The notes under the pieces are model-generated. The model was not told the origin of the DNA, made no database searches, and worked only from the letters and a program-made list of their open reading frames with translations. This document shows, piece by piece, positions 24,601-27,703 of a stretch of DNA of 64,000 bases; the stretch's first letter is position 1, and every line of letters begins with the position of its first letter. The position numbers and the translations under genes are program-made. This DNA comes from Schmidtea polychroa (lineage: Eukaryota): assembly GCA_044892525.1 (NCBI GenBank), contig CM097885.1, positions 15,378,001 through 15,442,000 on the forward strand. The letters run 5' to 3'.

Positions 24601-25842
24601 TTAATGATGCCGGGGTTCTTATATGTCGATGTCCAGACAATCGACTAATTTCGGCAAACTTTGTTATTTTAAAATTAATCTCCAGTATCCTGTTAAGACG
24701 CCAACTGCTACCCAACTCCGATCTAATAGCAATTTTCTCATTCAAACTTTCGATTCCTTCATCTAAAAAGTCATCTGTTAATTTTGTGGCTCTGTTTGAA
24801 ATTCTTGCAGTCTTCAGCTCACCGTCTTTGACGAATTCTGCATTGATCCCGAACTGTATATTAACGCTCTTCATTTCATTTATACAAGCGTTTAATTTTA
24901 TCAGCAACGTTGGTGGAATAACTATTTTTTGTATATTATAACAAGATATGTCCAGTGTGATAATTCTATGTGTTCTGTATAAATCACATTCAATTTCCGG
25001 TACATCTGATATTCCTGCTCCTGTTTGAAAGTCATCAACTAGTGAGTAGTGATCTGCATAGTCAGTACTATCACTGTCAACATTCGATATATTTTCGTTT
25101 TGATCATTGAAATCTAGTTCTTCTATTATTTCAAACGATCCATTTATTATATCAATTTCTTCTTCTTCAGATCTTCCAACGTCTTCGCGCCTTGAACTTC
25201 CAGCTTCTTCGCGCCTTGAACTTCCAGCTTCTTCGCGCCTTGAACTTCCAGCTTCTTCACGCCTTGAAGTTCCAGCGTCTTCACGCCTTGAACTTTCAGC
25301 TTCTTCATGCCTCGAATCTTCTTCCTCCGAATCCATGATTTCAATTATTTCTGAGTTTGCATTTTCTATTTTCTCCAATCTTGCTTTTTTATTTTTAATT
25401 AAGTGAGTGGAAACCTTTCTTTTGATAAGCTTATCTTCAGGCCTTGAACTTCCAACTTCTTCACGCCTTAAACTTCCTGCTTCGTTGCGCCTTGAACTTC
25501 CAGTTTCTTCATGCCTCGAATCTTCTTCCTCCGAATCCATGATTACAATTATTTCTGAGTTCGATATTGTATTTTCTATTTTCTCCAATCTTGCTTTTTT
25601 ATTTTTAATTAAGTGAGTGGAAACCTTTCTTTTGAAAAGCTTATCTTTACGCATCACAAATTGATTTAAATGTGTCTTATGCGTGTTATAAAAGGACATG
25701 TAGGGATCGGAACTTAAAGTTTCGCAATATGGGCATAAAAAGTAATTTTGTTGATAATATGTTTTGCCATAATATGTTTGCATGATTTTATGACAGCTTT
25801 TATTGTGACTACTGTTTTGACAATAATTTGGGTATAACACAC
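21674..25842 (-). CDS. Protein-primed family B DNA polymerase of the outer Polinton (main exon)
   Basis: 1388-aa frame with YADFES, FHNLRGYD, DINNLYGWA, KLLNNSLYGK and GDTDS. Begins right after a TTTTAAG acceptor (AG at 25844-25843), so upstream exons are likely. Confidence 0.95.
25175..25650 (-). repeat. Coding repeats in the PolB N-terminus
   Basis: 24-bp units encoding EEAGSSRR, plus a duplicated block DKL.KRKVSTHLIKNKKARLEKIEN...MDSEEEDSRHEE. Confidence 0.9.
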
Positions 25843-26621
25843 CTTAAAATAAATAATGATTTAAATATTTATTAAATGAATTTTATTTTATTAAAATAAT
25901 TCGGGTTTCCCTTTTGTGTTCCATATATTTTGAGAAAAAAGTTTTATAATCACAAACAATGTGTAGTTTATTTTATTCAAGTGTAAGACATCCGACAAAA
26001 AACCATTACTTTATAAGTTAAAAATGCTAAAGGTAAACGGATGCATTTGTAAACAGTTTCTATGTATTGACTATTTTTTTTAGTCAACAGAGGTGATTAT
26101 GATTTCATACCTTATGTTTACGTGAATACAGATTTCTGTGACCAAGCTATTATGCAAGTGATGTGATTTCCAGTGTACCATGGAAAGTATGCAATAAAGC
26201 TAGATCAATAATATTGTATTCTTATTGGTACATAAAGAATTCTTTGCGTCTCCTATAGAGTATTGATGATAGCAAAAACAATAACTTGTAATGTTTATAC
26301 TATTTTAATAATATTAAAAATAAATTAAAATTATTATAAAATTTATTAAAAAAATATTAATGTTGTTTAGTTTAATATTATAAATAAGACGATACAATTG
26401 ACATTTTTACCGTTTTTGTCATTTTTACCATTTGATATTTTTTTTTAAACAAACATTATTTATGTTTAAATTTGTTTAAATATAATATTAATTATATTTT
26501 AAAAAGACACCCAATGGAGAAAATCTCAAAGAAAATCTCAAATTCACAAAGATTTGTATCTATTTTTTCAATTTTAATTTATTAAAAATATATATATATA
26601 AAATAATAATCCTTAATTAAA

Positions 26622-26760
26622 TCTAATATATAAAGATGAAAGTTTGTTTGTTTTCTATAGAATTCCCCACCGTCGGACCTAGGATGCTGAAATTTTACAC
26701 GTGGCCCTCATTTGACTCGGGACAGGTCATAGACTATGTTTCAACCCCAGGTGACTACCC
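26622..26760 (+). mobile_element. Fragment of a dispersed repeat (Helitron-like 5' end) inside the Polinton
   Basis: TCTAATATATAAAGAT...GTTTGTTTGTT...GATGCTGAAATTTT...CCTCATTTGACTCGGG...TTTCAACCCCAGG; a diverged inverted copy lies at 62061-62202. The family assignment is tentative. Confidence 0.6.
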
Positions 26761-27262
26761 CTAAATACCCTTAGTCGGATTTATTTTGTCTGTCCGGTCA
26801 GCAATTTACCATATAAATAATAATTTATTATATCCTTGCTACTTGAAGTTAAAAGTAATATAATTTAGTCAAAAATATTTAAAGCAGAATTCAAACTTAT
26901 AGAATTTGAATTTTATTTGATTAGTTAACCAGTTTGCAATTGGAAAAATATTACCGGTTATTTTTGATTTAAATTGAAGGGTTTTCGATTTTACAAATTG
27001 AAATTTATTTTGAAAGCTTTTCTTATTGTAATTAAACATAGAATCGAAACTTATAAAATTAATACTGGAACGTATTACCATCATTAAAAAATTAATTTAA
27101 TTGTATTATATAAAATTAATACTGGAACGTATTACCATCATTAAAAAATTAATTTAAATGTATTATTATGAAAAGCGGGTAAAACATTTAACTTATTATA
27201 AAATTTATTAAAAAAATAGTATTTAATTAAAATTTAATTTATTATAAAAATTTATAACTTAC

Positions 27263-27385
27263 ATGTATCATAGAAATCTTCCATATCATTTCCTTGATCG
27301 ATATCACAACATATTTTCTAAACGAAAAACTTAATATATATATTAAATAAATAAAGTTTACCGTTTGTTTTTTATTATTTGGCAT
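27263..27385 (-). CDS. Two small exons (MPNNKKQT / KICCDIDQGNDMEDFYDT), candidate 5' exons of the outer PolB
   Basis: ATG at 27385, GT..AG intron 27361-27318, and a GTAAGT donor at 27262 in phase 1, compatible with the PolB acceptor. Confidence 0.45.
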
Positions 27386-27673
27386 TCTTCTTCTTTTATT
27401 TTGAATGAATAATATCTGAAAGAAAAGAAAATAAATATTTAACAAGAGCAAAATAAAATCTTACTTGTTAGATAAAAATTAATTGATTAATTGAAATTCA
27501 AATGTAATATTAAAACAATAGTTAATTATCTAAGCAACTATTGTTAACAACCAAATAGAATCTTCTAGAATTTTTTTTATATAACTAAGAATATTCTTTT
27601 TATTCATAGATTTTGTTCATAGTTAAATAATAACTAATTATTGTATCTAAATATTTATTGTTACCAATCAACT

Positions 27674-27703
27674 AGAATGTTCTAGAATGTTCTAGAACAT
27701 TCT
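27674..27703. promoter_or_regulatory. Heat-shock element (six alternating nGAAn units)
   Basis: aGAAt gTTCt aGAAt gTTCt aGAAc aTTCt; CCAAT at 27664; weaker HSE-like units and a minus-strand TATATAAA near 27555-27600. Confidence 0.7.

What the first reader, a model, noticed from the sequence alone, without database searches (positions are those of the whole stretch)
25842..27703. Perfect heat-shock element upstream of exons that can splice into the outer PolB
Six contiguous alternating nGAAn pentamers (27674-27703) match the HSF consensus. On the minus strand they are followed by TATATAAA (~27580), a candidate 5'UTR intron (~27464-27416), two small coding exons, and a phase-1 donor (27262) compatible with the phase-1 acceptor opening the PolB exon (T|GT GTG TTA). 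Inference: host HSF could switch on the viral replicase under stress, a prophage-like induction mechanism. Phase match alone has a 1-in-3 chance.
Basis: partly seen in the sequence, partly recalled or inferred. Interest (0 to 1): 0.7.

Follow-up and report, generated by a model that had tools for sequence, protein, structure and literature searches.

The report
Heat-shock promoter on Polinton polymerase gene
One family of virus-like jumping elements (Polintons) in this animal genome carries two canonical heat-shock elements around the TATA box of its DNA polymerase gene, which is very likely spliced, so the host's heat-shock factor would likely switch that gene on under stress, a control not found in print for Polintons and not yet tested.

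Summary

The splice model is strongly supported by comparison. The phase-1 acceptor sits at the same place in 18 of 20 loci from four families about 50% identical. Exon 3 keeps phase 1 in 22 of 23 sister copies. No junction was seen in RNA contigs.

The heat-shock elements are specific to this family. The TATA-proximal one is perfect in 27 of 28 copies (1 change against 7.4 expected, P about 0.01). The distal array varies between four and six units, is a palindrome, and is deleted in 4 of 25 copies. Host hsp90 promoters use the same motif.

Heat induction is inferred, not shown. The integrase and capsid genes have no such element, so full prophage-like induction is unlikely. The scan found spliced pPolB leaders in this genome before, but not the heat-shock elements. 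This is a new variant of ONSEN-type hijacking of the heat-shock factor.

The parts
1138..31194 (.). Outer Polinton/Maverick copy with terminal inverted repeats and a 6-bp target-site duplication (ATCGTT)
   Evidence: Inverted repeats I3/I4; termini and TSD; ATPase, rve integrase, C5 protease; DJR-like capsid lead
27774..28232 (-). Bcl-2-like ORF ending 70 nt upstream of the distal array
   Evidence: PF00452, E 1.3e-07
27674..27703 (-). Distal heat-shock element, six perfect alternating nGAAn units (four in part of the family); lies within a palindrome at 27667-27711
   Evidence: hairpin -16.5 kcal/mol, z -7.5
27664..27668 (-). CCAAT-box word (ATTGG on the gene's strand) next to the array
   Evidence: 0 changes against 4.1 expected among copies, P 0.025; similar words seen by eye in two other families
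27588..27597 (-). Two-unit half site just upstream of the TATA, in young and middle copies; a different palindrome stands here in most of the older group
27576..27583 (-). TATA box (TATATAAA)
   Evidence: TATAAA kept in 27 of 28 copies
27557..27571 (-). Proximal heat-shock element, three perfect units, directly downstream of the TATA
   Evidence: perfect in 27 of 28 copies; 1 change against 7.4 expected, P 0.012
27416..27464 (-). Predicted 5' UTR intron, 49 nt, GTAAGA...TTTCAG
   Evidence: a similar UTR intron is seen by eye in two other families
27362..27415 (-). Predicted exon 2; ATG at 27385, 8 codons (MPNNKKQT)
27263..27317 (-). Predicted exon 3, 18 codons plus 1 nt (KICCDIDQGNDMEDFYDT), after a 44-nt intron at 27361-27318
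   Evidence: length is 1 mod 3 in 22 of 23 copies, over six length classes
25843..27262 (-). Predicted phase-1 intron, 1420 nt, holding high-copy repeats; donor GTAAGT in the youngest copies, GTTAGT in older ones
21674..25842 (-). Main pPolB exon; the junction codon T|GT would give Cys

Best explanation
This is a cluster of heat-shock elements, a CCAAT word and a TATA box in front of the very likely spliced DNA polymerase (pPolB) gene of one Polinton family, and it likely lets the host's heat-shock factor raise polymerase transcription under proteotoxic stress. Shown in the sequence: the motifs, their order, their retention in sister copies and their absence from the promoters of four other families sampled. 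Inferred: RNA polymerase II starts about 25-30 nt after the TATA; three GT-AG introns are removed; 26 leader codons and a split Cys codon are joined to the 1388-codon exon; HSF trimers bind the distal four-to-six units and the proximal three units. The likely gain for the element is a burst of its replicase when the host is stressed, as with ONSEN. Integrase and capsid genes are not under the same motif, so this would be a boost to one gene rather than a switch for the whole cycle. My odds: about 0.9 for the splice model and about 0.6 for HSF-driven induction.
For: Acceptor AG|G at the homologous position and phase in 18 of 20 loci from four diverged families, with conserved residues upstream of the first in-frame Met, and in 28 of 30 sister rows. 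Upstream exon chains ending in a phase-1 donor in 4 of 10 loci by automatic search and by eye in L091/L096. Exon 3 phase kept in 22 of 23 copies. Proximal element perfect in 27 of 28 copies, with 1 change against 7.4 expected (P 0.012) and no shared variant in 9 core columns against 38 of 194 background columns. Distal array: 20 of 25 copies keep four- or six-unit length, and the 6 core changes I counted in the alignment are all private to one copy. A second perfect three-unit run within 150 bp has a chance of about 0.006 at the background density. The host has 3 HSF DNA-binding-domain matches, and perfect three-unit elements upstream of 3 of 4 hsp90-family loci and 3 of 13 hsp70 loci. An RNA sample with almost no repeat background (X2 = X3) holds PolB contigs at depth 6-10, like the host PIH1 gene. 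Precedent in a flatworm: PMC12801592 (passages).
Against: No heat-shock data. No contig shows any of the predicted junctions, and one X1 contig runs unspliced across the acceptor (25606-25995); X1 has a DNA-like repeat background of about 1-2x per copy, so this counts little either way. The distal array is a near-perfect palindrome with a 10-bp duplication, is deleted in 4 of 25 copies, and control patterns reach six units as often genome-wide. My first pooled conservation test was not significant (P 0.09-0.57 on mismatch rate; it included alignment artefacts). The proximal element lies between the TATA and the likely start site, an unusual place. Splice dinucleotides were not significantly more conserved than the flanks (P 0.3-0.6). 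In PMC12801592 two of six HSE-bearing families were not induced (passage seen). Planarian Polintons are under piRNA silencing (PMC8532177, passages). If X2/X3 are unstressed animals, PolB RNA exists without heat.
Confidence: 0.6

Rival explanations
1. The arrays are by-products of the element's replication: template switching makes palindromes and slippage adds 10-bp units. They match the HSF consensus by accident and the promoter runs on CCAAT and TATA alone, as in the sister families.
For: The palindrome extends beyond the pentamers (hairpin z -7.5). Four- and six-unit forms differ by one 10-bp step and 4 of 25 copies lost the array. The half site swaps between two different palindromes. Control patterns give as many six-unit arrays genome-wide. 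Other families have no such element.
Against: Two separate perfect elements with different spacer letters flank one TATA (chance about 0.006 for the second). The proximal core is conserved while its first spacer letter varies. No core change is shared between copies.
Confidence: 0.22
2. The words are functional but bind another symmetric factor (for example the element's own proteins or another host factor with a TTC...GAA site), or act as a hairpin in the 3' end of the Bcl-2-like transcript.
For: The whole palindrome, not only the GAA/TTC letters, is conserved in the distal array. It lies 70 nt after the Bcl-2-like stop and folds well. The element encodes its own TBP-like protein.
Against: The 5-bp alternating spacing is the HSF signature (established knowledge; the definition used in PMC12801592). 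The proximal element is not a hairpin arm. The host hsp90 promoters carry the same word.
Confidence: 0.1
3. HSF binds, but the copies stay silent or the binding serves host-side ends: piRNA-guided chromatin blocks induction, and PolB RNA comes from read-through or from a start inside the last intron using the conserved internal Met.
For: A Met about 20 codons into the main exon is present in all five families. An unspliced contig crosses the acceptor. Polintons are repressed by SMEDWI-2 (PMC8532177, passages).
Against: Residues upstream of that Met and the acceptor are conserved across families. The unspliced contig may be DNA carry-over.
Confidence: 0.08

Closest known systems
HSE-bearing LTR retrotransposons: ONSEN (Arabidopsis; PMC3907296, search listing only) and the Mag/CsRN1/Gmr1 families of the flatworm Macrostomum lignano (PMC12801592, abstract and passages)
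   Same: A mobile element has canonical nGAAn arrays in its own promoter, gained by single families and absent from sister families.
   Different: Here the element is a virus-like dsDNA Polinton. The arrays stand before one internal gene (the replicase), not in a terminal repeat driving the whole element. Induction was measured there and is untested here.
Helitron-borne HSEs of Caenorhabditis (PMC6927752, abstract and outline)
   Same: A DNA transposon family holds a large share of the genome's strong HSEs (11 of 16 perfect six-unit sites here).
   Different: Helitron HSEs rewire neighbouring host genes. This array is 3.5 kb inside the element and faces the element's own gene.
Polintons/Mavericks (adintoviruses) of animals (PMC8502044, PMC8097293; passages)
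   Same: TIRs, 6-bp TSD, pPolB, rve integrase, packaging ATPase, C5 protease, DJR-like capsid lead and Bcl-2 cargo.
   Different: PMC8097293 reports no introns in intact vertebrate elements; here pPolB is very likely multi-exon. The word 'heat' does not occur in either main text.
Latent herpesviruses whose lytic switch promoters are regulated by heat-shock factors (PMC12047821, search listing only)
   Same: A host HSF acts on a promoter of a latent DNA virus.
   Different: There the target is an immediate-early transactivator. Here it is the polymerase gene, and no cascade to integrase or capsid is evident.

Membership tests
Polinton/Maverick | [quoted passage not shown] | tested here: met
   element 1138-31194, TSD ATCGTT
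Polinton/Maverick | Protein-primed family B DNA polymerase | tested here: met
   Motifs read by eye (names recalled); 28% identity over residues 406-1382 to a second PolB type in L081; Pfam PF03175 did not reach the threshold for this ORF
Polinton/Maverick | rve integrase, packaging ATPase, cysteine protease | tested here: met
   PF00665, PF04665 and PF00770, all above cut-off
Polinton/Maverick | Double jelly-roll major capsid protein | tested here: inconclusive
   Atlas hits at 0.98 to clusters where 15-24% of members carry PF21738; no Pfam hit; not folded
Polinton/Maverick | Intronless core genes, as described for vertebrate elements | tested here: not met
   Comparative evidence for introns in pPolB; a described trait of vertebrate elements (PMC8097293), not part of the family's definition
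Canonical heat-shock element | At least three contiguous alternating nGAAn units | tested here: met
   six units and three units
Canonical heat-shock element | Promoter-proximal position near a TATA box | tested here: met
   distal array 90-120 nt upstream, proximal element directly downstream; the start site itself is not mapped
Canonical heat-shock element | Conserved more than flanks | tested here: inconclusive
   proximal P 0.012; pooled first test not significant; distal length varies
Canonical heat-shock element | Bound by HSF and required for heat induction | not testable with these tools
   no ChIP or heat-shock run was offered
Prophage-like inducible provirus | One stress signal triggers excision, replication and particle genes together | tested here: inconclusive
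   no perfect three-unit element elsewhere in the element; indirect control cannot be excluded from sequence

The most novel reading that the evidence does not exclude
An endogenous animal Polinton has wired its replicase to the host heat-shock factor and strengthened that wiring as the family expanded (four to six units, an added half site, a duplicated promoter in one subgroup), so that host stress starts the replication phase of a latent polintovirus. This would be the first named host trigger for an animal Polinton's life cycle.
Probability: 0.2. Interest if true: 0.85.

Novelty: new variant of a known kind. Interest (0 to 1): 0.58.

Why it matters
What activates animal Polintons is not answered in the papers my searches returned: the induction cases listed were algal elements woken by a giant virus and a latent giant virus (listings only). 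A canonical HSF site on the replicase promoter gives a specific, cheap test in what is probably a laboratory flatworm, using RNA-seq, HSF knockdown and ChIP. If true, it extends HSF hijacking from retrotransposons and Helitrons to a virus-like DNA element. It also shows Polinton promoters adopting host-style control together with spliceosomal introns.

Tried and rejected
No RNA holder was on record as RNA. The small exons and promoter (27227-27800) had almost no contig cover in the four runs laid, and X8 had none over PolB; contigs show presence, not absence, and the stretch is 20% GC, so this is no evidence. X1's PolB depth (46-64) was first read as expression; I dropped that reading because X1's depth at three repeats is 0.045-0.076 of the DNA run X4, about 1-2x per copy, which over some 25 copies gives a similar figure. 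A three-unit match 438-447 nt upstream of the acceptor in L092/L095 first looked like a conserved element; it lies inside the first coding exon and was rejected. Capture of the promoter from a host hsp gene: a DNA search with the promoter listed only family-type copies among 40 of 60 candidates scored (loci were read for 30 matches and 10 stretches were fetched, not for every row). No relatives outside this genome: 0 matches in metagenome contigs, none confirmed in viral contigs. A Bcl-2-to-PolB splice, suggested by a contig ending at 27851, was not listed among the joints and is left open. The TATA P-value is not used, because masking left only 8 copies. My first notebook entry misread the older donors as GTAATT; they are GTTAGT. 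The 5' exons of family B (L082-L088) could not be resolved.

Full report
Setting. The window lies in a 781-Mb, AT-rich animal genome with four large contigs; a planarian flatworm is my inference from size and composition, not a tool result. It holds a Polinton at 1138-31194 with terminal inverted repeats and the TSD ATCGTT. Pfam finds a packaging ATPase, rve integrase, C5 protease, a Bcl-2-like and a TBP-like gene. A capsid candidate has DJR-like neighbours in the Atlas (a lead). The frame at 21674-25843 is a pPolB by its motifs. A second, palindromic element is nested at 3812-17427.

Observation. The six-unit pattern occurs once in the window and in 0 of 100 shuffles. Of the 8 three-unit matches in the window, 5 belong to this promoter and 3 lie outside the element. 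Genome-wide, 11 of 16 perfect six-unit sites are this family's array. The backwards control patterns give 2 and 3 sites, so a long array as such can arise by duplication.

Splicing. I fetched 20 loci of PolB relatives from the 131 matches; all but one were about 50% identical. In 18 of the 20 the N-terminus of the window's exon had a homologue. All 18 have AG|G at the same position and phase, preceded by AT-rich intron-like sequence, with conserved residues upstream of the first in-frame Met. They fall into four groups. An automatic search found chains of small coding exons ending in a phase-1 donor in 4 of 10 loci tried: the window, L092, L078 and L080. L091/L096 show by eye a TATA, a UTR intron and one coding exon ending T|GTAAGT. 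Family B stayed unresolved. Within the window's family the acceptor is in register in 28 of 30 rows. Exon 3 has a length of 1 mod 3 in 22 of 23 copies where it could be delimited (6 of 29 could not), over six length classes, although these indels lie in GAT repeats that slip by three anyway. The scan had reported such spliced leaders in this genome before. PMC8097293 (passages) describes intact vertebrate elements as intron-free.

Conservation of the heat-shock elements. Among 28 copies with the TATA block (one further locus, L133, did not match), the proximal element is perfect in 27 and TATAAA is kept in 27. On a tree of the copies its nine core letters change once against 7.4 expected from base-matched flanks (P 0.012); the CCAAT word changes 0 times against 4.1 (P 0.025). 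No core column has a shared variant, against 38 of 194 background columns. The distal array, in 25 of 29 copies that kept the upstream anchor, has six-unit length in 14, four-unit length in 6, is interrupted in 1 and deleted in 4. The six core substitutions I counted are each private to one copy. That pattern fits selection while the family was active and decay after insertion, but the numbers are small. An earlier pooled test, confounded by duplicated and truncated copies, was not significant. The array is also a strong palindrome, which keeps the by-product explanation alive.

Family specificity and host context. None of the 18 diverged loci has a perfect three-unit element in promoter position within 2.5 kb of the acceptor; the only perfect match lies in a coding exon. 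The host has three HSF DNA-binding-domain matches. Perfect three-unit elements stand upstream of 3 of 4 hsp90-family loci and 3 of 13 hsp70 loci examined, never longer than three units, against a background of 13 per 346 kb. So the motif is in use in this host, and the Polinton's array is longer than any host example sampled.

RNA. Only assembled contigs were available. Spliced host joints show that X1, X2 and X3 are RNA and X4 is DNA. PolB pieces 99-100% identical to the window are in X1 and in one further sample, X2 = X3. X1 has a DNA-like repeat background, so its signal and its unspliced contig across the acceptor are ambiguous. X2/X3 have almost none and hold PolB at the depth of a host gene. 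Strand and treatment are unknown, and no predicted junction appears.

Mechanism. Most likely this family added HSF sites to an ancestral CCAAT/TATA promoter of its spliced polymerase gene, so that stress raises the replicase (0.6). Rivals are palindromic by-products (0.22), another factor or an RNA hairpin (0.1), and silent or bypassed sites (0.08). A coordinated prophage-like induction needs integrase and capsid genes to follow; they have no such motif, so I give it about 0.2.

Comparison and novelty. HSE acquisition by mobile elements is known from ONSEN, Caenorhabditis Helitrons (PMC6927752, abstract) and Macrostomum LTR elements (PMC12801592, passages), where four of six HSE-bearing families were strongly induced. 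Searches for Polinton or Maverick with heat shock element, heat stress or HSF returned no paper that, by title or abstract opening, reports it for these elements (listings only, open-access library only). The scan's own notes had nothing on it. Verdict: a real, family-specific, probably functional promoter; new variant of a known kind; interest 0.58.

Noticed in passing
window 3812-17427: A 13.6-kb palindromic element nested in the outer Polinton with its own 6-bp TSD (ACAATG). Each arm has a PF03175 pPolB of another type plus pieces similar to the N-terminal part of the outer PolB. Many PolB hits in the genome come as back-to-back pairs.
   Followed up: partly
L107, L109, L110 (promoter region): Three copies share a tandem duplication of about 156 bp that doubles the TATA and the proximal element.
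   Followed up: partly
window 28893-29363 (+): A short TBP-like ORF (PF00352, E 2e-14, one repeat) inside the Polinton, kept in sister copies.
   Followed up: no
window 27851: An X1 contig over the Bcl-2-like gene has 28 letters that do not lie here; no genomic copy among those examined breaks at this place. Unexplained.
   Followed up: partly
window 25900-26300 and 26580-27120: Two high-copy repeats inside the last PolB intron, shared by most sister copies.
   Followed up: no
L077, L081: Loci with two different PolB types facing each other.
   Followed up: no
window 59745-62828 (+) and 56581-57345 (-): Host PIH1-domain gene and a second spliced host gene, both with junctions in RNA contigs.
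   Followed up: no
L033 1500-1529, L043: A perfect six-unit array inside a reverse-transcriptase-bearing repeat (RT motif recalled), two copies.
   Followed up: no
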